From Patescibacteria group bacterium (GTDB lineage Bacteria; Patescibacteriota; Minisyncoccia; Phycocordibacterales; BOKC01): a stretch of 64,000 bases of DNA. Of this stretch, positions 8,194-59,275 are shown piece after piece. Position numbers and translations under genes: made by a program. Below the pieces are notes generated by a model that was not told the origin of the DNA, did not search any database, and saw only the letters and a list, made by a program, of their open reading frames with translations. The stretch is from assembly GCA_038062955.1 (NCBI GenBank), contig JBBTWE010000001.1, positions 253,925 through 317,924 of the forward strand, in the 5' to 3' direction. Position 1 is the stretch's first letter. Every line of letters begins with the position of its first letter.

Positions 8194-8261
8194 ATTCAAG
8201 ATTTACGATTTAGGATTTAAGATTTTTTAAAATAATTTGATTAGAAAGGTTGTTTTAATAT

Positions 8262-8350
8262 AAATGGTAAAAACCATTTGATCCGTCTTCGCTCGTGCAT
8301 CATGAGAATAAAGATTCTCGCGATTACACTCGCTAGCCGGAATAAAAAAG
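8262..8350 (-). repeat. MITE-like repeat family D, short variant
   Basis: Reverse complement matches the ends of the 39716-39840 copy (TTTTTTATTCCGGCTAGCGAGTG ... CGAGCGAAGACGGATCAAA-GGTTT-ACC-TTTA). Terminal hairpin AAATGGT/ACCATTT. Confidence 0.6.
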
Positions 8351-8407
8351 AAGAGCCCCCGCAGAAACATTCCTGCAAGGGACTCGAACACCGAGAACGT
8401 GGCACAG

Positions 8408-8608
8408 CTACATCGGCCTCCTTCCACTCATCTCGTGTGCCCTACGACGGATGAAGGAAAGGAAGAATACTCCGGACGTGAAGGTCATGAGTGCAAACAC
8501 TAGCATCATGTCCCAACACGCAGCGAATGCGGCAACAACAAAAAACACACCGCTCATCACACTCAAGAGGCCGATCAACGCAATTGGTAGGTCTCGCACC
8601 GATATCAT
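8408..8608 (-). CDS. candidate small membrane protein (66 aa, two predicted TM helices) in a GC-rich islet
   Basis: Hydrophobic ORF MISVRDLPIALIGLLSV..VFFVVAAFAACW inside a ~50 % GC block. GGAG lies directly next to the ATG (poor spacing), so coding status is uncertain. Confidence 0.3.
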   Translation of the reverse strand: MISVRDLPIALIGLLSVMSGVFFVVAAFAACWDMMLVFALMTFTSGVFFLSFIRRRAHEMSGRRPM

Positions 8609-8675
8609 CTCCAGAAGAACTTGTCACGACCACCGTCGTAACTCGGATTCCCTACTGCATTTCAGGAACATTTTG

Positions 8676-8703
8676 AGCATAGCACAAGGCACCTTTTCTG
8701 TCA
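8676..8703 (-). promoter_or_regulatory. sigma70-like promoter (TTGACA-16-TATGCT) driving the GC-rich islet
   Basis: Read on the minus strand: ttgacagaaaaggtgccttgtgctatgct. Confidence 0.4.
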
Positions 8704-8805
8704 AGGAGATTTTGTGCTTTATTTAACCCAAATTATAGCCTTAAATAAAGCCTTATAATTGAGCGGTATTTAATTCTGATTTATTCTTAAATCTTGAATC
8801 ATAAA

Positions 8806-10086
8806 TCAGTTTATCTTGGTGGTATCTCTCGAGAAAAACAGATTGATTGTCCACTCAAAAGCTATTCGGAATCTCTTTTTCCAAGATAAAAATTTAAAAA
8901 GATAAACTGTGCGCCAAAGCCACCAGGCAAATCTTCCTTTAATTTTAAATCCAAAAATATCCCCTACCGCCTGCCACTCACCGAGCGAAATCAAACTACC
9001 CATTGATTTATACTTAAAAGATCGCAGTTGTTTTCCGCTTAAAATATTTTGTAAATTTTCTGCCACCGTCTTCGCTTGGTTTACGGCCACTTGTGCCAGC
9101 ATTGGAACCGCACCATTTTCATCACTCTTAAAATAAGCAACATCTCCTAAGACAAAAACTGAATCTTGATTAAGCGCTAAAAGATTTTGATCAACTTTTA
9201 CTCTGTTATTTTCTGTTAACTCAATATTTCCTATTATTTTAGGCAATACCGGAGAAACTCCCGCGGTCCAAAATATATTTGATGATAAAATTTTCTGTCC
9301 ACCTCCTAAACTTACGCCATTTTCGTGAATTTTCGTAACTGACGTATCTCGAAGCACAGAAATCCCCTTCTTGTTTAATATTTGAAGAGACCAATCTCGC
9401 AGTTTCTTGGGAAAGTGAGACAAAATCTCGGCTTCCCTGCTAATAAGAATGATTTTTATATCTCTTTTCTTGCAAAAAGTGTCTGCGTAATACGGATAAA
9501 GGGTGCCTACGACGAATTCAGCAATCTCCGCGACCAATTCCGCGCCAGTAGCCCCCGCTCCAACCACCACGAATGTTAAAAGTTTTGTTCTTTTTTCGCC
9601 CACAGGTTCTGAAGCGGCCTTCTCAAATGAATCGATTATTCTCGCTCGAATCGAAAGAGCGTCCCGTAGGCTTTTGAGTGGCAAGCTATTTTCTTTTGCG
9701 CCGGAAATTCCATGAAAATTTGTTTCTGCACCCGTGGCCAAAACAAGGTAATCAAATTTTATTTTTTCATTATTCGTTTCAACAATTTTTTCGTCTAAGT
9801 TAATGGCCGTAACTTCGGCCTGTCTAAATTGTACCTGACTGCCGGCAGGCAGGTGTCTTTTATTTCGGATAATTTCTCTGATTGGCTCGGTCGCGCTTAT
9901 AGGAGAAAGACCACCAGTTGCAACCTCATGCAAGAGTGGTGTGAAAAGAAAGTAATTTGTCTTGTTTATAAGAGTTACCTCAATTAAACCACTTTTAATC
10001 AGTTTTTTCAGTTTTCTTGCAACATAAATCCCCCCAAATCCCGCCCCGATTATGACTATTTTCTTTTTCTCCATAAATTTCACCAT
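8806..10086 (-). CDS. ndh: type II NADH dehydrogenase (NDH-2), FAD-dependent
   Basis: Two Rossmann motifs: KKIVIIGAGFGG and FVVVGAGATGAELVAE. Confidence 0.85.
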   Translation of the reverse strand: MVKFMEKKKIVIIGAGFGGIYVARKLKKLIKSGLIEVTLINKTNYFLFTPLLHEVATGGLSPISATEPIREIIRNKRHLPAGSQVQFRQAEVTAINLDEKIVETNNEKIKFDYLVLATGAETNFHGISGAKENSLPLKSLRDALSIRARIIDSFEKAASEPVGEKRTKLLTFVVVGAGATGAELVAEIAEFVVGTLYPYYADTFCKKRDIKIILISREAEILSHFPKKLRDWSLQILNKKGISVLRDTSVTKIHENGVSLGGGQKILSSNIFWTAGVSPVLPKIIGNIELTENNRVKVDQNLLALNQDSVFVLGDVAYFKSDENGAVPMLAQVAVNQAKTVAENLQNILSGKQLRSFKYKSMGSLISLGEWQAVGDIFGFKIKGRFAWWLWRTVYLFKFLSWKKRFRIAFEWTINLFFSRDTTKIN

Positions 10087-10226
10087 ACACTAACTTTAGC
10101 CTATAGACTAAAGTTAGTTGCGAGTAAATTTTAACTTTTACTCTTACGCTGATTTATTATGTTACAAGTATATCAAAACATCCGCTACGCAGAGCGGATG
10201 TTTTTGAATTAGAATTCTAATTATTG

Positions 10227-11996
10227 TTATCGCTGTTCAAATTCTGGAATTGTAACAATTCGAACATGACAAACATCACTATTCACACATCCACTGCCTA
10301 CTGAATCACATATCCTGACATAAGCAGTTCTTGTGCCTAGAGTCGAATAGCTCTCTGGCCGAGATTGTCCATTTCCAAAACTATTTATATTATTATTTTG
10401 ATAAAACCAAGCATATGTGGATGGAAGGCTGACATTAAGATTATTCGACGGAGCCTGCCACGTTACACTTTGACCTATAAGAGCCATATTTGGTGAGACG
10501 GTGCATTCGTTAGGTGATGATGGGTTGTTAATTACGACATTGAAAAAAGCTTCTTTCTCATCTGGTGGGCCTGCGACTACGTTATCAACGGTCACTCTAA
10601 ATGTAATGGAATCAGTGCCAGAACGTACATAGCCAGGAGCAACTGCCACATCCATGGAAATACCAATATCGCAAGAAGCGCCTGGACACACTTCGCCACC
10701 ACCTTGAACATTACTAATCGTTATTCCTGGTATAGATGGAGAAGTTTGAGTAATACTTACGATTCTGACATCTTCAGCTGTGCCACGAGTATGATTAATC
10801 TCAACCACAGAGTTGACTGGCGTACTCCACTGCCCGGTTTGGGGAGGTGTAATTAACACTGACACCGGGTTCATTGCCACTGTGTAATCAAACTGATTTC
10901 CTCCAGTGCCAGATGAATCAACCGAAACAACAAAATCTATATTTTTAGCAGACGGAGAGCGGTTTGGATCAGGATGATTATCAACAGTTACTATAAATCT
11001 AATTAGATTTATAGTTGGGTTATTTGCTCTATAAGAGCCGTCAAATGTCAGATTAACTGAAATAGGAAGCGGCGTACAAGAAGCATTTGGACACACTGTA
11101 CCAATTCCTTGATAGGTAACACTTACGCCAGTTGGCCACTGATAGATTGGATTTGGAACAATATTTAAAATCTTAAGATCTTCAGCTGTACCGCTCGTAT
11201 GAGTAATCACCACAGAAGATGCGGCTGGCATTGTCCCAACCCAACTACTAGACGGAAATGCCAGTGGAACAAGGTTCGGATTGACGCTCGCCGTGTAATC
11301 AAAAATATTCGGTAAATTACATTGATTACCCGAAGCTAAAGTAACACCGTAATTCTGGCCATCACGAAAACTTATCCAACCAACCATATCTCCGCCCCAA
11401 GCCCAACCAGCCAATTCATTATTTGATGGAGCGTATGTAACACCATATTTTCCTGCACCTGTACCCCCACTTAAAGCTATCCAACCATCCCAGCCACCAC
11501 GATAATAAGCCGGTGCAAGCGTTCCAGTACAATCTGAAACAAAAACTGCACAAGCCCTAGCCCAACCAGTTACTTTATTATTAGTTTCGATTTTAGCGTT
11601 GTCCCTTGCAACATATCCACCTCCCGGGAAAGGACCAACTAGTCCTCCAAAACGTACCCAGCCAATGTCTGACGACCATGCGTAGCCGACCAAAGTGCCA
11701 TCATTATTTTTTACTACCCTGTAAGGAGTTCCGCTTGGGGTTGAACCACTAAAACTCAACCATCCCATGCCTTCCAATCTTTCCGAAAGAGGTCTGTCGC
11801 CTCCACCTGTTGTAATATAACCCCACTCCGGATTAGTGTACCCGGACCATGCCCATCCAAGTAAAGGACAAAGATTTGCTTGAGCGTTTGATTTAACAGG
11901 AGAAACAAAGAGAAAGCCTAGAGTTAAAACAATTAAAAAATTCAAAAAAATAAAATATTTTTTATTTGTTTGTATTTTATTTTTTAAATTTTTCAT
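10227..11996 (-). CDS. secreted W/G-rich repeat protein with Ig-like C-terminal domains
   Basis: Signal peptide MKNLKNKIQ..FLFVSPVKSNA. Repeated GWAWSG / GYAWSSDIGW motifs. Two repeated modules VVITHTSGTAEDLKI / VVEINHTRGTAEDVRI. Confidence 0.55.
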   Translation of the reverse strand: MKNLKNKIQTNKKYFIFLNFLIVLTLGFLFVSPVKSNAQANLCPLLGWAWSGYTNPEWGYITTGGGDRPLSERLEGMGWLSFSGSTPSGTPYRVVKNNDGTLVGYAWSSDIGWVRFGGLVGPFPGGGYVARDNAKIETNNKVTGWARACAVFVSDCTGTLAPAYYRGGWDGWIALSGGTGAGKYGVTYAPSNNELAGWAWGGDMVGWISFRDGQNYGVTLASGNQCNLPNIFDYTASVNPNLVPLAFPSSSWVGTMPAASSVVITHTSGTAEDLKILNIVPNPIYQWPTGVSVTYQGIGTVCPNASCTPLPISVNLTFDGSYRANNPTINLIRFIVTVDNHPDPNRSPSAKNIDFVVSVDSSGTGGNQFDYTVAMNPVSVLITPPQTGQWSTPVNSVVEINHTRGTAEDVRIVSITQTSPSIPGITISNVQGGGEVCPGASCDIGISMDVAVAPGYVRSGTDSITFRVTVDNVVAGPPDEKEAFFNVVINNPSSPNECTVSPNMALIGQSVTWQAPSNNLNVSLPSTYAWFYQNNNINSFGNGQSRPESYSTLGTRTAYVRICDSVGSGCVNSDVCHVRIVTIPEFEQR

Positions 11997-12049
11997 TTTA
12001 ATCTTTGAGTGTTGGTTTAGAAAAGAAATAAATTTACCTTTTTAGATTG

Positions 12050-13171
12050 TTATTGTCCCAACCAAACAGCTGTAATTCCTTTTATATATGGTGGAGTGAT
12101 GGAGGTATTATCAGTATTTTCCACAGAAATATTAAATTGATTATGCCAAATACGAATAATCCTAGTGACAGAAAACGGATCAGTCCCATCAGGATTATCC
12201 TTTGTTTCAAAAAGAATATCCTCACTAAATGGATTTCCGAAGTTACCTCCTGCACCTCCGTCCCAAAACATTCTAATTCTGGTTGCCTTAGAACAAGAAT
12301 CGCAAGTATTTCCTGTCGTGCCCCAGACTGTTACCTGCCACAAACCAGGCTGGAGGAAATTAAGTGGATTAGTCTGACCTGTAACAGTAGTAGTAATTCC
12401 TAGAGGAGAACTGAAATTAACAAGTGATTTATGAAAAGTATATGAGGCTTGTTGAGTAGGAGTGTTTACCCACACCGCTTCTCCCTCATAATCGAGCGAG
12501 GATAGATAAGTATCTGGATATGGTTTACCACCCATAATTCTTATCCTACCAAGAGTATAAAGAGAAACTTCTGGTGAATTAATAGTGCCACTACCGATTC
12601 GGACAGTACTACCTGGCCCACGAGGAATATCAATGGTGTATTCGGGATTCAGTGTCCCAATACCAATTCTTGCATCCGGGGAGTCAGCAATAATCGATGT
12701 GCCTAGTCCTACTTCGGAATTCCCTGGTCCTTCTAGGCGAATAGCTGATTGTTGTGGGTTTGCCCTATCTTTAAAGATATGTAGTATGCCTGGGATGCCT
12801 GGGATGGTTGCGGGATTTTTATTTCCGATCAATAAACCTTTATATGGAATAGTTACGGCAAAAGGAGGTATGGTGTTTGGAACCGGAACAAGATCATGCG
12901 TGTCTAGGTGCAGTGGACCATTTTTTATTTGAGGAGAATCACTAACATTCAAAGGTACACCCACGTTTTTTAACAGAGGATTGGGGGGGAGAAAAGATAG
13001 AGGTGGTGGAGTCCAAGGATGTGGTGATGTAAACCATGGGTTAGAAGGTGTCAAAAGCCAAGGATACACATTCCAATGTGTTGCCAATACATCTTGAGTA
13101 GAAACAGCGATCATCAAAGAAAGAATGATGATCTTAGAGACCGAAAGAAAGTTTTGTTTTAAATTTTTCAA
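12050..13171 (-). CDS. secreted paralog 1 of MKNLKQ-family surface proteins (TTG start)
   Basis: Conserved signal peptide. Shares PEYTIDIP, LQPGxW, GTTGNTCDSCS with the next two genes. Confidence 0.6.
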   Translation of the reverse strand: MKNLKQNFLSVSKIIILSLMIAVSTQDVLATHWNVYPWLLTPSNPWFTSPHPWTPPPLSFLPPNPLLKNVGVPLNVSDSPQIKNGPLHLDTHDLVPVPNTIPPFAVTIPYKGLLIGNKNPATIPGIPGILHIFKDRANPQQSAIRLEGPGNSEVGLGTSIIADSPDARIGIGTLNPEYTIDIPRGPGSTVRIGSGTINSPEVSLYTLGRIRIMGGKPYPDTYLSSLDYEGEAVWVNTPTQQASYTFHKSLVNFSSPLGITTTVTGQTNPLNFLQPGLWQVTVWGTTGNTCDSCSKATRIRMFWDGGAGGNFGNPFSEDILFETKDNPDGTDPFSVTRIIRIWHNQFNISVENTDNTSITPPYIKGITAVWLGQ

Positions 13172-13222
13172 TTTTTTGTTTTAAATTTATTCTAAACACT
13201 ATGACTTTCTACAAAAAGTTTT

Positions 13223-14293
13223 TTAACTTCCTATCAAATACCCGCTAATACCATTTATAGTTGGCGCATTGATTCCGCCTCCTCCACCATTATCATTCAC
13301 AGAAAAATTTAAGCCAGGATTGCCAGGCAGTACTCTAACAACCAGAGAAATAGAATATGGAGCAGTGCCGTGTGTAGGGGTTTCTATTCGAAAAGATCTA
13401 CCATCTGGAGTTGGCATCTGATTGTTCGAAACTTCGATAGTTACTGTAGTGTTTGGAGAGTATGCCGCTCCGGTAGTGCCAAAAACCGTAATATACCAAT
13501 AGCCCGGCTCAAGATTGCTGGTTGAATAATTATTATTGTTAACCCCCTGTCCCCAAGATTCATCGATAGTATGAAGCGCAGAAGAAGGAATCATGTTTGG
13601 ATCTGGAATAATGCGTGGACGGCCTGTTGCTGTCCATGATCCTGTTCCGTCGGCATCCACTGATTGTAAATAAGCATCAACTAAAGGTATGGGAAAAGGA
13701 TTACCTGTATCCATAATTTGCAACGTGCCAGAAGTTTGAAGAGAAACTCCAGACGGAACAGTGCCACCGCCAATTCGCATAACAGGGTTCCCTTGCGGAA
13801 TATCGATGGTATATTCCGGATTTAAGGCTGGGTCTGTTCCAATGCCAATCATTGTCCATTGAGTTGGAGTGACCAATGCTGGACCTGCCCCTTCCACACG
13901 AATAGCAGGTCGTTGTAAATTTGCCGGATCTTTATAAATATGGAATTGAGGACGAGATGAGGTTGAAATGGTTTCAGGATCTCTATTCCCGAGCAATACG
14001 CCTCCATTATTAACACCCATCGCATTCCCATGAATAATACTGAAACCAAAAGATGATGAAACATACGGAAATTCAGTTCTGACATTGTTTGCATTTATAA
14101 GTAGTGGCCCATCTTTTATTTGCGGCGTACTTCCTGTATTTAAAGGCAATGCTATGTTCCCGCCCGGAAAAGCAACTGTTACAGGTGCCGAAGAAGTCGG
14201 CTGTGCCAAAGTATGCGCAGTAACAAAACTAATCACTAAAAAAAGAATGATTATTTTTGCAATCGACAGAATTTTTTGCTTTAAATTTTTCAA
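13223..14293 (-). CDS. secreted paralog 2 of MKNLKQ-family (TTG start)
   Basis: Signal peptide ends ..AHTLA-QP. LPLNTGSTPQIKDGPLLINANNV and NPEYTIDIPQG are shared with the other paralogs. Confidence 0.6.
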   Translation of the reverse strand: MKNLKQKILSIAKIIILFLVISFVTAHTLAQPTSSAPVTVAFPGGNIALPLNTGSTPQIKDGPLLINANNVRTEFPYVSSSFGFSIIHGNAMGVNNGGVLLGNRDPETISTSSRPQFHIYKDPANLQRPAIRVEGAGPALVTPTQWTMIGIGTDPALNPEYTIDIPQGNPVMRIGGGTVPSGVSLQTSGTLQIMDTGNPFPIPLVDAYLQSVDADGTGSWTATGRPRIIPDPNMIPSSALHTIDESWGQGVNNNNYSTSNLEPGYWYITVFGTTGAAYSPNTTVTIEVSNNQMPTPDGRSFRIETPTHGTAPYSISLVVRVLPGNPGLNFSVNDNGGGGGINAPTINGISGYLIGS

Positions 14294-14307
14294 TTTTTTG
14301 TCTTAAA

Positions 14308-15447
14308 TTAATATTGCGTCCAATATGCGCTAACTCCGTTTATAAGTGGTTCTGCCGTGCCAGAAATGTTATCCGTAACACTGACTGTTATTTTGCCGTA
14401 GTTTAAGTTGGTATTTTGGGGAACATAAACAATCCTAGTAATAGAAAACTCCGCATTTCCATCTGGATGATCTCTTATGAAAAAAGGGGTATCGACAGTT
14501 CCAAGTGAACCATTCGCGCCAAGTCTCATTGAAACAGTAACTGTGTAAGAGCAAGTATCACAGGCATTTCCAATAGTACCAAAAGCCGTCACGTGCCAAA
14601 AACCCGGTTGTAGAAAGTTAAGTGGATCGGGCGAAATAGACGCGGTGGAAGCGACTCCACTTTCCGAGAATGCTTCAGGCCAACTAACATACTGAAGCAA
14701 GGAAGGGTTGTGGTTATATAAAGATCGCCTTGCATGATACGGAACCTTCCAAAGTGTTTCTCCGGTCCCATTCAAAGTGGCCAGATAAGCGCCAGGGAAT
14801 GGACCGGCAAAATCAGTGGATGGACCATTGCCGTCATATTGATTGCCACTATCGAGAGATGGACCACCTCCCATTATTTTTACTCGACCGTTAACTTGAA
14901 GAGAGACTTCATCGTCCTGTAGACTACCATTTGGCTCATCACCACCAAGCCGAACGATCGGGATACTGATGTTGTTAGGAGTTATATTTCCCCAAGGTAT
15001 ATCAACAGTGTAATTCGGATTTAATGTTCCAATACCTATTTTTGCATCTGCAGAGTCGGTAACAAGTGCCGGACCAGACCCCTCAATACGAATAAATATC
15101 CGTCGGTAGGTATTGTGAAAAATATGCAACAATCCTTGTGGGGCAGTAACGGTATCAATCTGTGCCAAAACAGTGCTAATCAACATGCCCCAATAAGGAA
15201 TGGTTAAGCCGAAATATTGGGCAACATTGTTTGCGTTTATAAGTAGTGCCCCATCTTTTAATTGAGGAGAAGAACCGGTATTTAACGGCAGATCTATTCT
15301 TTCTACGGCTACAAATGGATCTTCTGGAGGAGGAGTTGATGTAGGTGGAACCCACTGCGCAGAAGTTTGCCCAGCAAAAATGCTAATCATAAGGGAAAGA
15401 ACGATGATTTTTGTGACCGACAGAATTTTTTGTTTTAAATTTTTCAA
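14308..15447 (-). CDS. secreted paralog 3 of MKNLKQ-family (TTG start)
   Basis: LPLNTGSSPQLKDGALLINANNV, NPNYTVDIP, LQPGFWHVTAFGTIGNACDTCS. Confidence 0.6.
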   Translation of the reverse strand: MKNLKQKILSVTKIIVLSLMISIFAGQTSAQWVPPTSTPPPEDPFVAVERIDLPLNTGSSPQLKDGALLINANNVAQYFGLTIPYWGMLISTVLAQIDTVTAPQGLLHIFHNTYRRIFIRIEGSGPALVTDSADAKIGIGTLNPNYTVDIPWGNITPNNISIPIVRLGGDEPNGSLQDDEVSLQVNGRVKIMGGGPSLDSGNQYDGNGPSTDFAGPFPGAYLATLNGTGETLWKVPYHARRSLYNHNPSLLQYVSWPEAFSESGVASTASISPDPLNFLQPGFWHVTAFGTIGNACDTCSYTVTVSMRLGANGSLGTVDTPFFIRDHPDGNAEFSITRIVYVPQNTNLNYGKITVSVTDNISGTAEPLINGVSAYWTQY

Positions 15448-15518
15448 TTTTTTGTTTTAAATCCACGAATGAGAAGATGTTTTCTGAAAATCTCTATTCA
15501 GCAGGTTCATCTTCTATT

Positions 15519-15758
15519 TTATATAGCAGAATCGAAAAAAGCTTGTTTTTCTTCATCGGTCATACCAACGGCATTTTTTTGAAGTTCTTGATTAAGAAAA
15601 TTTTCTCTTTCAGTTTCAGTCAAACCTTGCGAAGCATTCTTGCTAAAGAAAAAAGAAATTAGAAAAGCCACTACAACAATCAAAATAATCACTCCCACAA
15701 TACGAAAAAAATGTTTGGAGATTGAGAAATTGTGATTTTGAATATTTTCTGGAGGCAT
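15519..15758 (-). CDS. small single-TM membrane protein at the head of the paralog array
   Basis: 79-aa ORF with one hydrophobic helix IVGVIILIVVVAFLISFFF. Confidence 0.35.
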   Translation of the reverse strand: MPPENIQNHNFSISKHFFRIVGVIILIVVVAFLISFFFSKNASQGLTETERENFLNQELQKNAVGMTDEEKQAFFDSAI

Positions 15759-15968
15759 TGAATATTAATTTAGATTCCCCATTTAAGAATATTATACTAC
15801 AAGCGGTCATGTTTATAAAGATAATGTGGATAACTCCAACACCTTTCAAGGTATTGCAACCAATTTTCAAAATAACTGATTTTGTGATAAATTTATTCTG
15901 GCTAGCGAGCGGAATTTATAGAACCAAATTATCAACAATTATTTTTAGCTTAATTTTTTTTCTTTAAT

Positions 15969-16667
15969 ATGGAAAATAATAAAACAAGCGGTGGTGGTTT
16001 TAAAGTCATTAGTTTAATCGTGGTTTTGGTAGCCGTTATTTTAATCATTGTATTTTTAATGCCACAAACAAAGAATGTGGTGGCGGAAGTAAATGGAGCG
16101 CAAATCACACAGAGTGATTTAGATAAAAAGGTAGTAAAGACAAAAGATTTTCTAAAGGGAAATGGGAACACCGACGTGCTTACAGCCCAACAAGAAATAG
16201 ACCTCAAAAAGAATGTTTTGGAAGGTATGATAACTGAAAAACTGGTAGCGGATTATGCGACAGAAAATAATATTGCGGTTACAAATGCAGAATTAGAAGT
16301 AGAGTTTGCAAAAGTGGTTACTTCAGCTGGTGGTGAGGCGGGTTTGGAAACTCAACTCAAGAACTTTAATATAACCAAAGCCCAACTTAACGAAGATATC
16401 CGTTCCGCTTTGATTTTTAACAAGTCCGTAGAAAAATACGTTGGAGCAGAAAAATTACTAGTAACTGAAGCAGAAGCATTGGACACTTACAACACTTTAG
16501 TTAAAGAGGCAAAGGCGGAAGTCCCTCCCTCAACAGAAGCAATCCCTTCGTTTGAAGATGCAAAAGTCTTACTTATGGAACAATTAAGAGGACAGAAGAT
16601 CAACGTCGAGTCACAAAGTTTTGTTGAATTTCTTCGAGGGAAAGCTACGATAAAAAACCTTTTGTAA
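15969..16667 (+). CDS. SurA/PpiD N-terminal chaperone-domain protein, membrane anchored
   Basis: N-terminal TM followed by VAEVNGAQITQSDLDKKV, which is typical of SurA_N/PpiD-like domains. Confidence 0.5.
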   Translation: MENNKTSGGGFKVISLIVVLVAVILIIVFLMPQTKNVVAEVNGAQITQSDLDKKVVKTKDFLKGNGNTDVLTAQQEIDLKKNVLEGMITEKLVADYATENNIAVTNAELEVEFAKVVTSAGGEAGLETQLKNFNITKAQLNEDIRSALIFNKSVEKYVGAEKLLVTEAEALDTYNTLVKEAKAEVPPSTEAIPSFEDAKVLLMEQLRGQKINVESQSFVEFLRGKATIKNLL

Positions 16668-16695
16668 GAGACTATAGAAAAAATGTAATTTAAAA

Positions 16696-16730
16696 AAACC
16701 CGCCATTTCGGCGGGTTTTTTAAATTATAT
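16696..16730. terminator. bidirectional rho-independent terminator
   Basis: aaaaaaacccgccatttcggcgggtttttt lies between two convergent genes. Confidence 0.8.
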
Positions 16731-16733
16731 TTT

Positions 16734-17024
16734 TTAGTATTCTTTTCGGAAACTAGAACTTCCTCCACGTGGTCGTTCTTCTTTTGCGCGAGCTTCGTCA
16801 ACGGTGATTTTTCTTCCTTCCATTTCTTTGCCGTTAAACATTTGAATCGCTGTCTTAGCTTCTTCATCGGATGCCATTTCAACGAAACCAAACCCTTTTG
16901 AACGACCTGACATTTTGTCAGAAATGATTGTTGCGGAAGCAACTTTTCCAGCTTTTGAAAAAAAAGCGGATAAATCGTTTTCAGTGGTGCTGTATGGCAG
17001 ACCACCTACATATAACTTTTTCAT
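16734..17024 (-). CDS. RRM-type RNA-binding protein
   Basis: RNP-2 motif LYVGGL and RNP-1 motif KGFGFVEM, plus an RGG-like tail. Start set at MKKLYVGG. Confidence 0.8.
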   Translation of the reverse strand: MKKLYVGGLPYSTTENDLSAFFSKAGKVASATIISDKMSGRSKGFGFVEMASDEEAKTAIQMFNGKEMEGRKITVDEARAKEERPRGGSSSFRKEY

Positions 17025-17147
17025 TATTATAGAGAACTTTGTTTGTCTTATAAATGAGGTCAGAAACCCCAAGTAAGTCGATCGAACCTTTAACGCTTAC
17101 TTGCTTAAAAAATTACACAAAAACCCTCAAAAAGTCAAACCATGAAT

Positions 17148-17471
17148 TTATCTCACAACACTTCCAGGTAATATTTCTTCGGAAGGATGAAGCAGGACAA
17201 CTTTGCTGTCCGAACTTGTTGCAAGAATCATTCCCTGACTTTCTAATCCCATAATCATGCGTGGTTCTAAATTAGTCAAAACGGGTACTTGCTTGCCAAC
17301 TAAAATTTGTGGATCATCAAATGACTCGCCAATTCCAGAGAGAATTTGCCTAGTTTCGTTTCCAAAATCAACTATAAGTTTGAGTAACTTAGTGCTTTTC
17401 TCAACTTTCTCTGCAGAAATAATCTTACCGATTTTAATTTCTAATTTTTTAAAATCTTCGATAGAAATCAT
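17148..17471 (-). CDS. tRNA-binding domain protein (CsaA/EMAP-like)
   Basis: MISIEDFKKLEIKIGKII..KLLKL.VDFG is the OB-fold tRNA-binding signature. Start set at MISIED so the gene does not overlap typA. Confidence 0.65.
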   Translation of the reverse strand: MISIEDFKKLEIKIGKIISAEKVEKSTKLLKLIVDFGNETRQILSGIGESFDDPQILVGKQVPVLTNLEPRMIMGLESQGMILATSSDSKVVLLHPSEEILPGSVVR

Positions 17472-17481
17472 ATGATTAGAT

Positions 17482-19278
17482 TTACTCTTTTCTTCTTGCT
17501 CTTGATCGGTCAGTATCACTTAAATACTGCTTTCTTAGTCTCACACTCTTGGGAGTTACTTCCAAATATTCATCGTCTGCCATTATTTCAAGTCCTCGCT
17601 CAAGCGTAATTGGCACCGGAGGGGCGAGCATAATATTTTCATCAGACCCACTTGCGCGCATGTTGGTGAGTTGCTTTCCTTTAGTGGGATTCACAGTCAT
17701 CTCTTCACCTTTTGAAGTATTACCAATAACCATTCCTTCGTAAACTTCTTCAGTTGGTCCGATATATAAAGTGCCTCGATTTTGAAGATTGTCCAAAGAG
17801 AATCCAAGAGCTTTGCCGGTCGCTTGTGAAATCATTGAGCCAACACTTCTCTTTTTAATCTCTCCAAAATATGGACGAAAACCAAGCACTCGGCTTGCCA
17901 TAATTCCCTCTCCTTTTGTATCGACTATAAACTGCCCACGGAAACCCAAAATGCCTCTAGTTGGACCTTCAAAGGTGAGTCTTACGCGTGATCCGTCCGG
18001 CTTCATATTTGTCATCATTACCCCTCTCTTTGATAGATTTTCGATAATACCTCCCTGCATTGATTCTGGAACTTCGATAGTCACCTCCTCAAACGGTTCA
18101 CTTTTCACACCATCAATATCTTTGATAATAACTTGTGGTTGAGATACCTGCATTTCATAACCTTCTCGGCGCATGTTTTCAAGCAAAATAGCGATGTGCA
18201 TTTCTCCACGGCCGTACACTCTCATATCGTCACCTGAAAAGTCCACCCGTAACCCGACGTTGATTTCAAGTTCTTTTTCGAGCCTTTCTCTTATCTGCCT
18301 GCTAGTAACGAATTTTCCTTCTTTGCCGGCAAAAGGCGAATTATTAACCAAAAAATTAAGAGCGATGGTTGGTTCATCAACCTTTATCACTGGAAGAATT
18401 TCTGTATCTTGCGAATCGGTTATGGTATCGCCAATATAAATCTCTGGTAGACCAGCGAGCATAGCAATATCCCCTGCTTCAGCTTCCGCAACTTCTTTTC
18501 TGGAAGTTCCTTCAAAAGTAAAAATCTTGGTTATTTTTTCTTCTTTTATTTCACCCCCAAGTTTCTTTACAAAAACTTTAGATCCGACTTTTACAGTTCC
18601 TTCGTAAATACGACAAATCGCGAGTCTCCCCAAGAAATTATCGTATCCCAGATTAAAAGGCTGGGCTTTAAGCGGCGCGGTTTTTGATGCATTAGCTGGT
18701 GCGACTTTTTCAAGGATGGTATCCAAAAGTGGCGACATATCTTTCTTTTCGTCCGAAAGTTTCTTCATAGTAACCCCTTGTTTTCCAATCGCATATACGG
18801 TTACAAAATCTAATTGTTCTTCATTTGCTCCAAGTTCAAAAAAGAGTTCCAAAACTTCATTGTGAGCTCTTTCTGGGTCAGCGGCCGGTTTATCTATTTT
18901 ATTTAAAACGACTATTGGTTTGTGTCCGATTTCAAGTGATTTTTTCAAAACGAATCTAGTTTGTGGCATCGGCCCTTCTTGAGCGTCAACAACAAGAACA
19001 ACTGAATCAATTGATTTTAAAACTCGTTCAACTTCGGATCCGAAATCAGCATGTCCCGGAGTGTCAACGATATTTATTTTAGTGCCTTTGTAGATTATCG
19101 AAGCATTTTTGGCATAAATAGTAATACCACGCTCTCTTTCAAGAGAATTTGAATCCATACTGCCTCCTTCCGGCGACATACCGGTTTGCTTCATGATGGC
19201 ATCAGTGATGGTGGTTTTGCCGTGATCTACGTGGGCTATGATTGCTATATTTCTAATTTCCATAGTGTCAACTTTCAT
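17482..19278 (-). CDS. typA: translational GTPase TypA/BipA
   Basis: [22 protein letters not shown] and NKIDK, at EF-G-like length. An alternative start MEIRN lies 15 bp downstream. Confidence 0.9.
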
Positions 19279-19389
19279 ATTTGGCCAATTTGCTTGCTAA
19301 AATTTCCGTGTCTCACTTCATCGTATTATTAAATACGTCTCGTTTCGATACTCAATTTTATTAAACAACTTGTCTCAAATCTGAAAGTT
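19279..19389. repeat. 111-bp element, left copy of an inverted duplicate pair (carries the typA promoter and leader)
   Basis: Reverse complement matches 48613-48723 with a single mismatch. Contains the palindrome CGTATTtaatAATACG. Confidence 0.85.
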
Positions 19390-19409
19390 TCAGTTTAAGC
19401 TCTATATTT

Positions 19410-19436
19410 AAAACAAAAGCCCACGTTCTGTGGGTA
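19410..19436 (-). terminator. rho-independent terminator
   Basis: On the minus strand: ACCCACagaacGTGGGC followed by TTTTGTTTT. Confidence 0.6.
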
Positions 19437-19513
19437 GATCCAATATAACACGGATTTATAAAATTTAAAAGGTAAAAAGAAAGAGCGGCCATCACTGGTC
19501 GCCCCCAAACACC

Positions 19514-19618
19514 TCAAGCAACCCCTTCAGAATCTTTGTCATCATCATAAATCACCCAAAAGAAAGCCCCGAAGAAGACAGCGAGAGCTCCGATCAAAAG
19601 CCACCACACCATGTCCAT
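19514..19618 (-). CDS. candidate 34-aa hydrophobic peptide (MDMVWWLLIGALAVFFGAFFWVIYDDDKDSEGVA)
   Basis: GC-rich islet with promoter TTGACC-17-TATGTT and GGAG 3 nt before the ATG. Too short to appear in the ORF track. Confidence 0.3.
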   Translation of the reverse strand: MDMVWWLLIGALAVFFGAFFWVIYDDDKDSEGVA

Positions 19619-19661
19619 TACTCCAGTAGGCAGAAGTAGAATGTGAGGAACAACCACCTAA

Positions 19662-19690
19662 AACATACTACTTCAGAATATATGGGTCAA
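19662..19690 (-). promoter_or_regulatory. sigma70-like promoter TTGACC-17-TATGTT
   Basis: Reverse complement reads ttgacccatatattctgaagtagtatgtt. Confidence 0.4.
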
Positions 19691-19697: not shown

Positions 19698-20111
19698 CTA
19701 CTTCCACAAGGCTAAAATTAGGACCATCACAAACAAAGAAATCAATTGATAAGCGGCGTTAAGTACAAAAAGCTTAATCGGTTTATTCTCCCAGAGGAAA
19801 CTTCCAATGCAAATTGGCACCATAATTCCTAACCAAATCCAAAACGCTAGTGACCAAGATGTTCCAGCATCTACCGCCCCTAACAAAACAACAAAATGAG
19901 CTACTACGTATGATTGAAGAAGTGTGAACAGAAAACCAAGAGTCATTGCTCGAGCGGGAGTGAGACTCATCGATTTCATACCATCTTTTGTAATACCCAT
20001 AAGAGCCATCCACTTTTTTCCAAATAAAGGTCCGTACCAAATTCCACCAATAACAAACGAAACAATGGCAGATACCAATACTGCCCAGTAATTTATTATA
20101 AGATTATCCAT
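19698..20111 (-). CDS. multi-TM membrane protein, DUF1761-like
   Basis: 137 aa with 4 predicted helices and a W-rich motif GGIWYGPLFGKKW. Confidence 0.4.
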   Translation of the reverse strand: MDNLIINYWAVLVSAIVSFVIGGIWYGPLFGKKWMALMGITKDGMKSMSLTPARAMTLGFLFTLLQSYVVAHFVVLLGAVDAGTSWSLAFWIWLGIMVPICIGSFLWENKPIKLFVLNAAYQLISLFVMVLILALWK

Positions 20112-22179: not shown

Positions 22180-22515
22180 TCAGCTTTTCTGAACGGGGTC
22201 ATCAGGTGTTGGCAAAAGCTTGGGTCTCCGTGAGGCAATACCCGTACCAACCATTGGGAGAAACACCGCGAGTGGGGCAATGAATGTGACCCATGATACT
22301 TCGCTAAATATCATGAGAACTACATCGTAAACACAAATACTGACGGCGAGAATAAAAGCTAGTTTGGCTGTCCTCGAGCTTTCCTTGTTTAGTACGAGGC
22401 CTTTTGACGTGAGACACCACAGTCGTCCGCTCAAGGCCCGCATATGAAGCGTCCAGCACAGTAAGAGGTAGACAACGCTCATACAGAGGATGATGATTAG
22501 ATGAATGGACAACAT
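22180..22515 (-). CDS. GC-rich membrane protein, unknown function
   Basis: 111 aa and hydrophobic, with AAGGAG before the ATG and a hairpin terminator at 22164-22200. Confidence 0.45.
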   Translation of the reverse strand: MLSIHLIIILCMSVVYLLLCWTLHMRALSGRLWCLTSKGLVLNKESSRTAKLAFILAVSICVYDVVLMIFSEVSWVTFIAPLAVFLPMVGTGIASRRPKLLPTPDDPVQKS

Positions 22516-22632
22516 ATCTTCTCCTTGGTTTTTGTGATGTGAAAGAACTTCTTAAAATAAGTTACTACAATGAATTGTTCCCGTCAATTCTAATAAAAAA
22601 AGACCCGTGCACTAGGCAACGGGTCTATGGGT

Positions 22633-28647: not shown

Positions 28648-28676
28648 TTGACAGATATGTAGTAATCTGCTATACT
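28648..28676 (+). promoter_or_regulatory. consensus sigma70 promoter TTGACA-17-TATACT
   Basis: tttgacagatatgtagtaatctgctatactag, followed by AGGAGG 6 nt before the ATG at 28721. Confidence 0.55.
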
Positions 28677-28720
28677 AGATATAGATATATTGTTCTTCCC
28701 AAAACCACAAGGAGGTCGTC

Positions 28721-32412: not shown

Positions 32413-32590
32413 GGTTCGATCCTTTGTTTGATTTTTGTGATTTCAGAAGAACAACCTATTTCTTAGACTATATAACTTCTTCCAACAAGTCAATCTTAGT
32501 GAAAACGACCAGCATATAGTTGGTGGTTTTCACTATCAAAAAAATGAGAAAGAAGTTTGTAAGTATTACTAAATATATTTTTCTATTCCT

Positions 32591-49767: not shown

Positions 49768-49834
49768 AAAGTTCTAATAATTATAATCGAAAGAGATTCA
49801 TAAGTCGAAATTTTAAAAAATTGGTTATAAAAAA

Positions 49835-55737: not shown

Positions 55738-55899
55738 GGTCTATTTCTCCATTTAAGAAGCTTGCTAGAAATCCACCGAAGTTGGTGGTCATAGCCAAGA
55801 ATCCTCATGTTCCATAAGAACTTTTGGCTACGACCACACTACTTACATCCCGCTTCCGCCCCAACTACAGCGTGGCAAAGTCAAAGAACAACTCGAAAA

Positions 55900-55928
55900 A
55901 ACATACTCTTTGTGAAGCATTTTGTCAA
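55900..55928 (-). promoter_or_regulatory. sigma70 promoter TTGACA-17-TATGTT
   Basis: Reverse complement reads ttgacaaaatgcttcacaaagagtatgtt. Confidence 0.45.
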
Positions 55929-58256: not shown

Positions 58257-58346
58257 GATTGACCGTTTCCTAAAAAGAAGTTTCGAATAGCGCTTCCAAA
58301 GAACTATTCCTCTTGCAAGATAGCATTTTTAGTGCTGTTGTGTCAA

Positions 58347-59094: not shown

Positions 59095-59275
59095 GACCGT
59101 TTCCTTCTATCGAGTGACCGAAAGCACCCAAGAAACTTGGATGCTTTTCACCTCTTTTCAACATCCAAAGAACCCATTGGGACGAGTGCCTCAAACCTTG
59201 AAAAGAAGTATGCGAGCAGGTTCCTCCAAAGAACTACTCCTCAAATAAATTATACCTTTAATGACCGCGTGTCAA

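What the first reader, a model, noticed from the sequence alone, without database searches (positions are those of the whole stretch)
8408..19618. Two GC-rich cassettes encode only short hydrophobic peptides (66 aa and 34 aa), possible type I toxin-like or membrane-modulator peptides
Cassette 8345-8700 has a promoter at 8676-8703 and a 66-aa two-TM ORF (8408-8608). Cassette 19410-19690 has a promoter TTGACC-17-TATGTT, a GGAG RBS, and a 34-aa peptide MDMVWWLLIGALAVFFGAFFWVIYDDDKDSEGVA (19514-19618) followed by a terminator. Independently transcribed tiny hydrophobic peptides with strong promoters are typical of type I toxin-antitoxin loci (Hok, Ldr, TisB, Fst-like) and of small membrane regulators such as CydX or KdpF-like proteins. 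The 8.4-kb region could alternatively be a structured RNA. I looked for RNase P, tmRNA and SRP signatures there and found none.
Basis: inference. Interest (0 to 1): 0.55.

Follow-up and report, generated by a model that had tools for sequence, protein, structure and literature searches.

The report
GC-rich orphan mini-gene cassettes
Two short GC-rich inserts in a groundwater Patescibacteria (CPR) genome are self-contained promoter–ORF–terminator units from a family of at least eight; one clearly encodes a tiny two-helix membrane peptide whose coding part was swapped in a sister species while its control region stayed fixed, and nothing links either insert to a known toxin–antitoxin system or RNA.

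Summary
The window comes from a Patescibacteria/Parcubacteria groundwater genome with 39% GC.

**Cassette 1 (8346-8704, minus strand) is a real gene.**
- A hydrophobic ORF this strong is rare by chance (P=0.0015 here, <0.00025 in a sister species).
- In that species the promoter and 65-nt leader are 97% identical and the terminator is retained. Neutral sites in the flanking genes are only 72-75% identical.
- The ORF body cannot be aligned, yet it again encodes a 67-aa two-TM peptide with an Arg-rich tail.

**Cassette 2 (19474-19690) is weaker.** Its 34-aa ORF is not distinguishable from chance (P=0.28). The sister species carries a different 62-aa ORF in that slot.

**Searches found no match.** Rfam, ARAGORN, Pfam, NCBIfam, PHROGs, PADLOC and searches of 5.8 and 1.8 billion proteins returned nothing. 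RNA folding is unremarkable.

**Both cassettes belong to a family.** At least eight GC-rich orphan units in the window share TTGAC-N17-19-TAnnnT-N4-18-GTTCYT (0.125 expected). Most carry a Shine-Dalgarno site and a strong terminator, whereas native genes lack Shine-Dalgarno sites.

**Verdict.** These are moron-like accessory cassettes. The type I toxin idea is untested, and its antisense partner was not found.

The parts
8681..8718 (.). Perfect inverted repeat AGCACAA-N24-TTGTGCT that encloses the cassette-1 promoter. It is a candidate operator.
   Evidence: Read from the sequence. It is 100% identical in the sister species (alignment A1). The plus-strand hairpin has dG -12.1 and z -1.6. The operator role is inferred.
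8676..8704 (-). Cassette-1 promoter TTGACA-17-TATGCT with an extended -10 TG.
   Evidence: It is identical in relative A. It forms part of the family motif.
8609..8670 (-). Cassette-1 5' leader. It holds GTTCCT at 8664-8669, the hairpin GTTACGACGGTGGTCGTGAC at 8623-8642, GTTCTT at 8615-8620 and GGAG at 8609-8612.
   Evidence: The promoter-plus-leader block is 104/107 identical to the relative. Identity at 4-fold sites in the flanking genes is 72-75%. Both substitutions fall in unpaired positions.
8408..8608 (-). ORF for a 66-aa peptide, or 63 aa from the GTG at codon 4. It has two TM helices, a 4-residue loop (CWDM) and an Arg-rich C-terminal tail.
   Evidence: Chance P=0.0015. GC3 is 0.63 against 0.24-0.38 in native genes. 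The same slot in the relative holds an unalignable 67-aa two-TM ORF.
8346..8381 (-). Cassette-1 intrinsic terminator: an 11-bp stem with 6 GC pairs, then CTCTTCTTTT.
   Evidence: The 3' half GGGGCTCTTCTTTTTTAT and the preceding TTCGAGTCCCT are identical in the relative, while the stem sequence differs.
8271..8349 (.). MITE-like repeat next to the cassette-1 terminator. It is not part of the unit.
   Evidence: It is 92-94% identical, inverted, to 39718-39828. It is absent at this site in the relative, which has a copy elsewhere.
19646..19690 (-). Cassette-2 promoter TTGACC-17-TATGTT plus GTTCCT 10 nt after the -10.
   Evidence: It starts 8 nt after the DUF1761 stop codon.
19514..19618 (-). 34-aa ORF, or 32 aa from the second ATG at 19612. 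It has one TM helix and an acidic tail DDDKDSEGVA. GGAG lies at 19621-19624.
   Evidence: It is not above chance (P=0.28). GC3 is 0.51. One assembly and the NCBI MAG annotation call it as a 47-aa hypothetical protein.
19474..19506 (-). Cassette-2 terminator GGGGGCGACCAGTGATGGCCGCTC plus TTTCTTTTT. It starts 7 nt after the stop codon.
   Evidence: Sequence and fold. The relative keeps it with base changes on both arms of the stem (GGGGGTGGCTAGCAATAGTCGCCC).
19410..19469 (-). BipA promoter-like element TTTAAA-16-TATATT (TG-extended) with a hairpin CCCACAGAACGTGGG and T-run. It belongs to BipA, not to the cassette.
   Evidence: It is about 80-85% conserved and lies directly before the BipA ATG in the relative.
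19279..19389 (.). MITE-like repeat between the BipA 5' hairpin and the BipA ATG.
   Evidence: It is 99% identical, inverted, to 48613-48723. It is absent at this site in the relative.
22543..22587 (-). Family member. The promoter+GTTCTT motif precedes a GC-rich orphan 111-aa membrane ORF (22180-22515).
28648..28697 (+). Family member. The motif precedes a GC-rich orphan 123-aa ORF (28721-29092).
32447..32493 (-). Family member. The motif precedes a GC-rich orphan 181-aa ORF (31867-32412).
55884..55928 (-). Family member. The motif precedes a GC-rich orphan 173-aa ORF (55216-55737).
58299..58346 (-). Family member. The motif precedes a GC-rich orphan 174-aa ORF (57732-58256).
59229..59275 (-). 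Family member. The motif precedes a GC-rich unit at 58440-59275 whose longest ORF looks doubtful.

Best explanation
**What the cassettes are.** Both are autonomous, moron-like accessory transcription units. They belong to a lineage-specific family of GC-rich orphan cassettes scattered between the AT-rich housekeeping genes of a Patescibacteria (Parcubacteria-type) genome.

**Shared layout.** Each unit has:
- a sigma-70-type promoter with a GTTC(T/C)T motif at or just after the start site;
- a short leader, CA-rich in several members, ending in a Shine-Dalgarno site, a signal the native genes do not use;
- one orphan ORF;
- a strong intrinsic terminator that insulates the neighbours.

**Cassette 1.** It produces a ~63-66-aa helical-hairpin peptide with a short outer loop and an Arg-rich cytoplasmic tail, which inserts into the cytoplasmic membrane.
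- Its promoter sits inside a perfect palindrome. The promoter and 65-nt leader are under strong purifying selection, so expression is probably tightly controlled.
- The coding body is a replaceable module. In a sister species it has been exchanged for an unalignable sequence with the same length, topology and tail.
- This means activity depends on bulk membrane properties rather than a specific sequence. That is the hallmark of small membrane-perturbing peptides (toxin or holin-like), not of dedicated enzyme subunits.

**Cassette 2.** It is the same kind of unit. Whether its 32-34-aa single-pass peptide is made is uncertain.

**Shown versus inferred.**
- Shown: the sequence features, family membership, conservation pattern, compositional and translation-signal contrast, and absence from all known protein and RNA families.
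- Inferred: transcription, translation, membrane insertion, foreign or recombinational origin, and any toxin-like activity.
For: **Source genome**
- The window is a Hainich groundwater contig.
- Its BipA is closest to Patescibacteria MAGs at about 71% identity.

**Cassette 1 is coding**
- A hydrophobic ORF this strong arises in 0.15% of dinucleotide shuffles here and in <0.025% in the relative.

**Conservation pattern against relative A** (NDH-2 about 89% aa identity; loci L092-L102, cassette region identical across samples)
- The promoter and leader are 104/107 identical, and the terminator 3' half is identical.
- 4-fold sites in flanking RelA and NDH-2 are 75% and 72% identical.
- The ORF body is 27/45/32% identical by codon position, close to random.
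- BLASTP finds no alignment between the two peptides.
- No inversion is detected.
- Both ORFs have two TM segments and basic tails with five Arg/Lys residues each.

**Composition and translation signals**
- GC3 is 0.63 (p66), 0.54 (relative's ORF) and 0.51 (p34), against 0.24-0.38 in 14 native genes.
- The synonymous-codon score is negative for the two cassette-1 alleles (-0.16, -0.14) and near zero for the 34-aa ORF (+0.02), against +0.06 to +0.15 in all 14 native genes.
- Native small proteins have GC3 of 0.22-0.26.
- The relative's cassette-2 ORF has GC3 0.49 against 0.26-0.36.
- A Shine-Dalgarno core is present in 7/11 GC-rich ORFs against 1/30 native genes (Fisher P=1e-4).

**Family motif**
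- TTGAC-N17-19-TAnnnT-N4-18-GTTCYT occurs 8 times in the window.
- 0.125 hits are expected, with a maximum of 1 in 200 shuffles.
- It occurs at 0.14 per 64 kb in 1.38 Mb of other loci.
- All 8 hits lie in front of GC-rich orphan ORFs.

**No known family fits**
- Rfam and ARAGORN found nothing.
- Pfam, NCBIfam, PHROGs and PADLOC found nothing.
- Searches of 5.8e9 and 1.84e9 proteins found nothing.
Against: - Only one related species could be recovered, so the 'replaceable module' rests on a single comparison.
- No empty site was seen, so insertion or mobility is not demonstrated.
- The 34-aa ORF is not above chance (P=0.28), and the 62-aa ORF in the relative is only marginal (P=0.08).
- Promoter-like hits counted alone are no more frequent than in shuffles.
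- GGAG abuts the annotated ATGs, and the relative's cassette-1 allele has no Shine-Dalgarno site.
- A full-length ungapped alignment of the two cassette-1 peptides gives 14/66 identities (P=0.0004 against shuffles). Extreme divergence of one ancestral gene therefore cannot be excluded, although local alignment is not significant (P=0.14).
- There is no expression, translation or phenotype data.
Confidence: 0.6

Rival explanations
1. Type I toxin-antitoxin loci. Each cassette would encode a membrane-depolarising peptide whose mRNA is held in check by an antisense or trans-acting small RNA. The conserved cassette-1 leader would be the RNA target.
For: - The peptides are small and hydrophobic, each with its own promoter and terminator.
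- Cassette 1 has a leader far more conserved than neutral sites, with a hairpin directly before the start codon.
- Cassette 1 keeps its architecture without keeping its sequence, as is typical of type I toxins (the generalisation is from established knowledge).
- The p34 layout, a short N-terminus, one TM helix and an acidic tail, resembles Fst as recalled from memory. This was not tested.
Against: - No plus-strand promoter or terminator overlaps cassette 1.
- The plus-strand candidates near cassette 2 are weak (9/12 matches). Both (19274-19303 and 19381-19408) lie in window sequence between the BipA hairpin and the BipA ATG that has no counterpart in the relative.
- No match was found to Hok, Ldr, Fst, TisB or Ibs Pfam families, or to any antitoxin RNA in Rfam, even at E<=10.
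- The loci are single-copy.
- p66 has two TM helices and 66 aa, which is atypical for type I toxins.
- Both units share their promoter and start-site motif with six cassettes that encode 111-222-aa orphan proteins. This points to a general cassette class rather than a TA module.
- The 34-aa ORF is not above chance.
Confidence: 0.15
2. Non-coding RNAs. The GC-rich transcripts would act as small or structured RNAs, and the ORFs would be incidental. This applies mainly to cassette 2.
For: - GC enrichment of short, separately transcribed units in an AT-rich genome is a classic ncRNA signal.
- The 34-aa ORF is not above chance, and the ORF differs completely in the relative while the terminator is kept.
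- The window holds at least one other ORF-less GC-rich unit with a terminator at 49.8-50.3 kb.
Against: - Rfam found nothing at any threshold, and ARAGORN found no tmRNA.
- MFE z-scores are -1.75 and -0.13.
- In cassette 1 the transcript body is not conserved in sequence, yet it keeps a highly non-random hydrophobic ORF in both species.
- The predicted long-range 5'-3' pairing is not maintained in the relative.
Confidence: 0.12
3. Small accessory subunits or regulators of neighbouring membrane machinery, in the manner of CydX, KdpF or AcrZ. Examples would be a partner of the type II NADH dehydrogenase upstream of cassette 1, or of DUF1761/PspC upstream of cassette 2.
For: - The slots are positionally conserved next to NDH-2 and BipA in two species.
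- The products are predicted membrane peptides.
Against: - Each unit has its own promoter and terminator and is not part of the neighbour's operon.
- The sequence is not conserved between species whose NDH-2 is about 89% identical. Partner-specific subunits normally are conserved.
- More distant NDH-2 relatives (62-65% identity) have different neighbours and no such unit.
- No Pfam match to CydX or KdpF families was found.
- In the relative, the gene upstream of cassette 2 is different.
Confidence: 0.05
4. Functionless remnants. These would be short pieces of foreign or decaying DNA that happen to keep promoter-like and terminator sequences and an open frame.
For: - Codon usage and GC are atypical.
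- The units are orphans in every database searched.
- MITE-like repeats lie adjacent to both.
- The cassette-2 ORF is weak.
Against: - The cassette-1 promoter and leader are 97% conserved and the terminator is kept, well above the neutral level.
- A hydrophobic ORF of the same design is present in both species.
- The shared start-site motif across eight units implies maintained regulation.
Confidence: 0.08

Closest known systems
Phage 'morons': autonomous promoter-gene-terminator units with deviant base composition, inserted between conserved genes (HK97/HK022 concept; from established knowledge)
   Same: - Each cassette has its own sigma-70-type promoter, one ORF and a factor-independent terminator.
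- Its GC content and codon usage differ from the neighbours.
- It sits between conserved genes.
- It encodes orphan accessory products.
   Different: - The cassettes lie in a housekeeping chromosomal region of a CPR bacterium, not in a prophage.
- All share a lineage-specific GTTCYT start-site motif.
- No empty site is documented.
- The cassette-1 slot keeps its control region while the ORF is exchanged.
Type I toxins (Hok, Ldr, TisB, Fst, Ibs, and similar)
   Same: - The products are tiny hydrophobic peptides from stand-alone intergenic units.
- Sequence conservation is poor while architecture is preserved.
- Cassette 1 has a conserved, structured 5' leader.
   Different: - No antisense or antitoxin RNA is detectable.
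- No family match was found.
- The loci are single-copy.
- p66 has two TM helices.
- The units share their regulatory motif with cassettes encoding much larger proteins.
- No type I system has been reported in CPR in the library searched.
Class II holins / pinholins (for example the ~70-aa two-TM S21 type; from established knowledge)
   Same: - p66 and its counterpart have two TM helices, a very short loop, an inferred N-in/C-in topology and a strongly basic C-terminal tail.
- The relative's allele begins Met-Met.
   Different: - There is no endolysin or phage context.
- There is no significant family hit. The best is Pfam Phage_holin_3_6 at E=0.18 (12 bits against a cutoff of 28), and PHROGs found nothing.
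Small membrane-complex subunits (CydX, KdpF, AcrZ, MgtS)
   Same: The products are of similar size, with one or two TM helices.
   Different: - They are not encoded in a partner operon.
- They are not sequence-conserved.
- No family match was found.

Membership tests
Type I toxin-antitoxin system | A small hydrophobic membrane peptide, usually under 60 aa with one TM helix | tested here: inconclusive
   p34 fits in size and topology, but its ORF is not above chance (P=0.28). p66 is clearly coding, but it has 66 aa and two TM helices.
Type I toxin-antitoxin system | An antisense or adjacent small RNA antitoxin, with its own promoter and terminator, overlapping or complementary to the toxin mRNA | tested here: inconclusive
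   No plus-strand promoter or terminator was found in 8100-8900. Near cassette 2 only weak plus-strand sites occur (19274-19303 and 19381-19408). Both lie in sequence absent at this site in the relative. Consensus scans cannot exclude an sRNA, so RNA-seq is needed.
Type I toxin-antitoxin system | A sequence match to a described toxin family (Pfam/NCBIfam) or antitoxin RNA family (Rfam) | tested here: not met
   Pfam and NCBIfam at E<=10 returned only sub-threshold noise. Rfam at E<=10 over both cassettes returned no antitoxin RNA.
Type I toxin-antitoxin system | Growth arrest or membrane damage on over-expression, neutralised by the RNA | not testable with these tools
   This requires inducible expression experiments.
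CydX/KdpF-type small subunits | Encoded inside the operon of the partner complex (cydABX, kdpFABC) | tested here: not met
   Each unit has its own promoter and terminator. The neighbours are NDH-2/RelA and DUF1761/BipA, and no cyd or kdp genes are present.
CydX/KdpF-type small subunits | Sequence conserved among relatives, with a family HMM match | tested here: not met
   No HMM hit was found. The peptide cannot be aligned between species whose NDH-2 is about 89% identical.
Class II holin / pinholin | Two TM helices and a charged, basic C-terminal tail in a 60-100-aa protein | tested here: met
   This holds for p66 and the relative's 67-aa ORF, by sequence inspection and hydropathy. Topology is inferred from the positive-inside rule.
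Class II holin / pinholin | Located in a lysis cassette with an endolysin, in a phage context | tested here: not met
   The flanking genes are RelA/SpoT and NDH-2. Viral-contig scans with the leader and both peptides found nothing.
Class II holin / pinholin | Match to a holin family model | tested here: not met
   The best hit is Pfam Phage_holin_3_6 at E=0.18, 12.3 bits against a cutoff of 28.4. PHROGs returned no hit.
Moron-like autonomous cassette | Own promoter and factor-independent terminator flanking a single ORF | tested here: met
   Consensus scans. For cassette 1, the promoter and terminator are conserved across species. The shared promoter motif occurs 8 times against 0.125 expected.
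Moron-like autonomous cassette | Base composition and codon usage that differ from the surrounding genes | tested here: met
   GC is 0.47-0.55 and GC3 is 0.43-0.63, against 0.31-0.43 and 0.22-0.38 in native genes. The synonymous-codon score is negative or near zero for the small ORFs and positive for every native gene.
Moron-like autonomous cassette | Present/absent polymorphism: an empty site between the same flanking genes in a relative | tested here: not met
   The one syntenic relative has both slots occupied, by different ORFs. More distant relatives are not syntenic.
Moron-like autonomous cassette | Resides in a phage or prophage genome | tested here: not met
   The context is housekeeping: RelA, NDH-2, BipA, DEAD helicase, dnaX and tRNAs.
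Known structured RNA (RNase P, tmRNA, SRP, riboswitch, sRNA families in Rfam 15) | Covariance-model match | tested here: not met
   The whole window at gathering threshold returned only two tRNAs. Both cassettes at E<=10 returned only noise. ARAGORN found no tmRNA.

The most novel reading that the evidence does not exclude
The GTTCYT-promoter cassettes would form a lineage-specific regulon, or a recombination-driven gene pool, of fast-turnover accessory 'effector' genes in an episymbiotic CPR bacterium. Cassette 1 would be a tightly repressed, hot-swappable slot for membrane-active peptides (toxin, holin or immunity-like). Its fixed operator and leader and exchangeable coding module would make it a new kind of polymorphic small-toxin locus, and the first such system described in Patescibacteria.
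Probability: 0.15. Interest if true: 0.7.

Novelty: new variant of a known kind. Interest (0 to 1): 0.4.

Why it matters
- CPR/Patescibacteria genomes are small and consist largely of unannotated genes. Very short ORFs such as these are usually not even called: p66 and its counterpart are absent from every gene catalogue searched.
- A recognisable promoter and start-site signature marks a whole class of GC-rich, Shine-Dalgarno-bearing orphan cassettes in a genome whose native genes lack Shine-Dalgarno sites. This gives a practical handle for finding the accessory, probably horizontally exchanged, gene pool of these episymbionts.
- A slot with a frozen control region and a swapped membrane-peptide module would be a compact model for how such genes turn over.
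- If the peptides prove membrane-toxic, the slot would extend small-toxin biology to the CPR. If not, the result still corrects an attractive but unsupported toxin-antitoxin annotation.

Tried and rejected
1. **Known RNA.** Rfam at gathering threshold and at E<=10, ARAGORN, and MFE z-scores all gave nothing.
2. **Protein homology.**
   - The word-indexed search of 5.8e9 proteins found nothing for p66 and only p47 itself.
   - Full HMMER against 1.84e9 representatives found nothing for p66.
   - Pfam, NCBIfam, PHROGs and PADLOC found nothing.
   - tblastn against all fetched loci matched only same-species contigs.
3. **Synteny through BipA.** Eighty GTDB loci were fetched. All share at most 72% identity and none is syntenic.
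4. **Concatenated query.** A DUF1761 + NDH-2 C-terminus query, meant to reach relatives of both cassettes in one search, returned only NDH-2 hits. P0004 is not on record. P0005 gave the same allele. The P0006 and P0007 species are not syntenic.
5. **Phage origin.** Viral-contig scans with the leader, both cassette-1 peptides and a 231-aa family member all returned nothing.
6. **Invertible segment or shufflon.** This was considered as an explanation for the unalignable ORF. No inverted matches were found.
7. **Terminal inverted repeats.** The pair GATTCAAGATTTA at 8193 and 8800 flanks cassette 1. The motif turned out to follow the stop codons of many native genes, so it marks native gene ends rather than a mobile element.
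8. **A 15-codon uORF in the cassette-1 leader.** It is rejected for two reasons. The AUG lies only 4 nt after the -10, and both interspecies substitutions are non-synonymous in that frame (sequence).
9. **Cassette 2 as a translational attenuator of BipA.** The stop codon lies 7-12 nt before the terminator in both species. However, a conserved promoter-like element sits between that terminator and BipA, and the ORF is not conserved.
10. **Homology between the two window peptides.** LIGALAVFFGAFF against LIGLLSVMSGVFF gives P=0.003 before correcting for six comparisons. This is treated as TM-composition similarity.
11. **Literature.** The search found no report of type I TA systems or small-protein cassettes in CPR.

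Full report
**Source and context**

The window is part of a 277-kb contig from Hainich groundwater (well H43, 0.1 µm fraction). Its BipA is most similar, at about 71%, to BipA of Patescibacteria/Parcubacteria MAGs. It is therefore a CPR genome. Mean GC is 39%.

The finding's 11-kb span holds two separate short intergenic units. Ordinary genes lie between them: NDH-2, four orphan proteins, a SurA-like protein, an RRM protein, a tRNA-binding protein and BipA.
- Cassette 1 lies between the convergent RelA/SpoT gene (6658-8193, +) and the end of NDH-2 (8806-10086, -).
- Cassette 2 lies between DUF1761 (19698-20111, -) and BipA (17482-19278, -).

**Checking the observation**

All listed features are present.
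- Cassette 1: the 66-aa ORF at 8408-8608 (-), TTGACA-17-TATGCT at 8704..8676, and a terminator at 8381..8356.
- Cassette 2: the 34-aa ORF at 19514-19618 (-), TTGACC-17-TATGTT at 19690..19662, GGAG at 19621-19624, and a terminator directly after the stop at 19474-19506.
- Both are GC peaks against AT-rich flanks.

I tested whether the ORFs exceed chance. The statistic was the best summed hydropathy of any ORF of at least 25 aa, compared with dinucleotide-preserving shuffles of each transcript.

| Unit | Window | Sister species |
|---|---|---|
| Cassette 1 | P=0.0015 | P<0.00025 |
| Cassette 2 | P=0.28 | P=0.08 |

The 66-aa ORF is therefore solid. The 34-aa ORF is not distinguishable from chance on its own.

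In both cassettes GGAG abuts the first ATG. The spacing seen in related cassettes (5-9 nt) fits a GTG at codon 4 in cassette 1 (63 aa) and the second ATG in cassette 2 (32 aa).

**Not a known RNA**

- Rfam found only two tRNAs in the whole window. It found nothing in either cassette, even at E<=10.
- ARAGORN found no tmRNA.
- The transcripts do not fold better than shuffles, with z of -1.75 and -0.13.

**Not a known protein**

- p66 has no relative among 5.8 billion clustered proteins or 1.84 billion representatives.
- The 47-aa form of the second ORF finds only itself, annotated as a hypothetical protein in an NCBI Patescibacteria MAG.
- Pfam, NCBIfam, PHROGs and PADLOC gave nothing above noise.
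- Gene callers did not call p66 at all.

**Comparison with the one recoverable relative**

An NDH-2-based metagenome scan and contig look-ups recovered a sister species, 'relative A' (loci L092-L102, from several aquifer samples). Its NDH-2 is about 89% identical (90% over the full-length alignment), RelA 95% and BipA 93%. The RelA-slot-NDH-2 arrangement is the same. Its cassette-1 region is identical in all samples.

Cassette 1, aligned to the window:
- The promoter and leader block is 104/107 identical.
- The motif TTCGAGTCCCT and the 3' half of the terminator (GGGGCTCTTCTTTTTTAT) are identical.
- 4-fold degenerate sites in flanking RelA and NDH-2 are only 75% and 72% identical.
- The ORF body between the conserved blocks is 27/45/32% identical by codon position, which is essentially random.
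- BLASTP finds no alignment between the peptides, and no inverted match exists.
- The relative nevertheless carries a 67-aa ORF in the same place. It has the same design: two TM helices, a 4-residue loop containing Trp, and a basic tail (RRGVKLGMARRQSGG against RRRAHEMSGRRPM).
- A full-length ungapped alignment gives 14/66 identities, more than shuffles do. A local-alignment test is not significant (P=0.14).

The control region is therefore under strong purifying selection. The coding body has either been replaced or has diverged far beyond the neutral level, and only its architecture is retained.

The promoter lies inside a perfect palindrome, AGCACAA-N24-TTGTGCT (8681-8718), which is identical in both species. 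A repressor site is a reasonable inference.

Cassette 2, aligned to the relative:
- The terminator is kept, with base changes on both arms of its stem.
- A promoter-like element and hairpin lie directly before the BipA start codon. The second 'terminator' at 19434-19420 therefore belongs to BipA.
- The ORF is a different 62-aa two-TM sequence, and the gene upstream is different.

**Compositional and translational contrast**

The small ORFs are compositional outliers.
- GC3 is 0.63 (p66), 0.54 and 0.49 (relative's ORFs) and 0.51 (p34). Native genes have 0.24-0.38, and native small proteins such as PspC have 0.22-0.26.
- Their synonymous-codon score is negative or near zero, while it is positive for all native genes.

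Native genes in the window have AT-rich upstream regions without a Shine-Dalgarno site. Often a TATAAT-like box lies 5-7 nt before the ATG, which suggests leaderless mRNAs. The GC-rich orphan ORFs of the window mostly carry GGAG or AGGAG instead: 7/11 against 1/30, Fisher P=1e-4.

**The cassettes are a family**

Aligning the upstream regions of the GC-rich ORFs revealed a shared design.
- A TTGAC(A) -35 box and a TAnnnT -10 box.
- A GTTC(T/C)T motif 6-15 nt after the -10, at or just after the predicted start site.
- A CA-rich leader in several members, then a Shine-Dalgarno site and the ORF.
- A strong terminator ending in TTTTTT(T)AT.

The composite pattern occurs eight times in the window, at 8704-, 19690-, 22587-, 28648+, 32493-, 55928-, 58346- and 59275-. 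Block shuffles give 0.125 hits on average and at most 1. Other loci give 0.14 hits per 64 kb across 1.38 Mb.

All eight hits precede GC-rich ORFs with no Pfam domain and no database relatives beyond the same species. The two cassettes of the finding are the two smallest members.

This architecture is that of phage 'morons': an autonomous promoter-ORF-terminator unit with deviant composition, set between conserved genes. Here it occurs in a housekeeping chromosomal context, with a lineage-specific start-site motif.

**Interpretation**

Most likely (confidence about 0.6), both units are autonomous accessory cassettes of this family.
- Cassette 1 is a genuine, tightly controlled gene for a helical-hairpin membrane peptide.
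- Its function tolerates complete sequence replacement as long as the architecture is kept. That behaviour fits membrane-perturbing peptides (small toxins, holins) better than partner-specific subunits.
- Cassette 2 is the same kind of unit, with uncertain translation.

The type I toxin-antitoxin reading (about 0.15) lacks its defining partner.
- No antisense promoter or terminator overlaps cassette 1.
- The weak plus-strand sites near cassette 2 lie in sequence that is missing at this site in the relative.
- No toxin or antitoxin family matches.
- Sharing a promoter signature with cassettes that encode 111-222-aa proteins argues against a dedicated TA class.

The remaining rivals are less likely.
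- An ncRNA reading (about 0.12) remains mainly for cassette 2.
- A CydX/KdpF-type subunit role (about 0.05) is contradicted by separate transcription signals and lack of conservation.
- Junk DNA (about 0.08) is contradicted by the conserved control region.

**Limits**

Only one syntenic relative was found. No empty site, expression data or phenotype exists. Transcription, translation, membrane insertion, foreign origin and any toxicity are inferred.

The decisive tests are these.
- A metagenome-wide scan for the leader, to collect alleles.
- A genome-wide census of the motif.
- Strand-specific transcript mapping.
- Inducible expression assays.

Noticed in passing
window 49790-50340 (minus strand): A GC-rich intergenic region upstream of dnaX with no credible ORF. 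It holds two terminator-ended units of about 100 nt and about 370 nt. The terminators are at 50206-50230 and 49829-49853. There is an internal duplicated module (TTTTGAGTGGC at 49915 and 50059). Folding z is -2.4, and Rfam found nothing even at E<=1. These are candidate unannotated ncRNAs.
   Followed up: partly
window, upstream of most native genes (e.g. 3546, 5203-6474, 6658, 56006-57073): Native genes lack Shine-Dalgarno sequences (1/30). Many have a TATAAT-like box 5-7 nt before the ATG, which suggests widespread leaderless mRNAs. The GC-rich orphan ORFs do carry Shine-Dalgarno sites.
   Followed up: partly
window 57628-61082: A 3.4-kb island of 55-62% GC lies directly downstream of tRNA-Glu (60913-60987). 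It contains several family cassettes, duplicated promoter modules preceded by long palindromes (TTTTGGCATCGTTGCTTTGCAACAAAGTTGCTATGCCAAAAT), a DUF5680 protein, and long ORFs that look non-protein-like. It is probably an integrated foreign island.
   Followed up: partly
window 8271-8349 / 39718-39828, and 19279-19389 / 48613-48723: Two families of short MITE-like interspersed repeats, at 92-99% identity in inverted orientation, sit next to both cassettes. They are absent at these sites in the sister species, which has copies elsewhere (L094 3980-4074, L093 15022-15207). A further GGCTAGCGAG-type copy lies downstream of the 31867 cassette.
   Followed up: partly
window 511, 8193-8230, 8789-8801, 52268, 54511, 55941-56003, 57590: An AT-rich periodic motif, (T)AGATTTAnGATTTAAGATTT, starts at or just after the stop codons of many native genes, including RelA, NDH-2 and the genes ending at 511, 54485 and 56006. 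The 62-nt stretch after the RelA stop that contains it is 98% conserved in the sister species. It may be a lineage-specific 3'-end or termination signal.
   Followed up: partly
window 23335-23480 (minus strand): The leader of the GC-rich orphan 231-aa ORF (22633-23328) contains three short hairpins, each presenting CCTGAAG. The cassette-1 leader contains CCTGAAA. This may be a shared protein- or RNA-binding motif.
   Followed up: no
window 5203-6474 (minus strand) vs L094 12769-14091: This orphan 423-aa protein is only 66% identical to its counterpart in the sister species. Its 4-fold sites are at random identity (28%), while adjacent RelA is 95% identical with 75% at 4-fold sites. It is a hypervariable gene, and 4-fold-site identity is uneven along the region (BipA 55%, RelA/NDH-2 72-75%), which suggests recombination.
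   Followed up: no
L094 1-150: In the sister species the contig ends just upstream of the cassette-2 slot. The end holds a divergent fragment encoding MSYTQNPYMPKVRQQAADLVRRGYTPTEVGR, which is helix-turn-helix or transposase-like, in place of DUF1761. This region is a rearrangement point.
   Followed up: no
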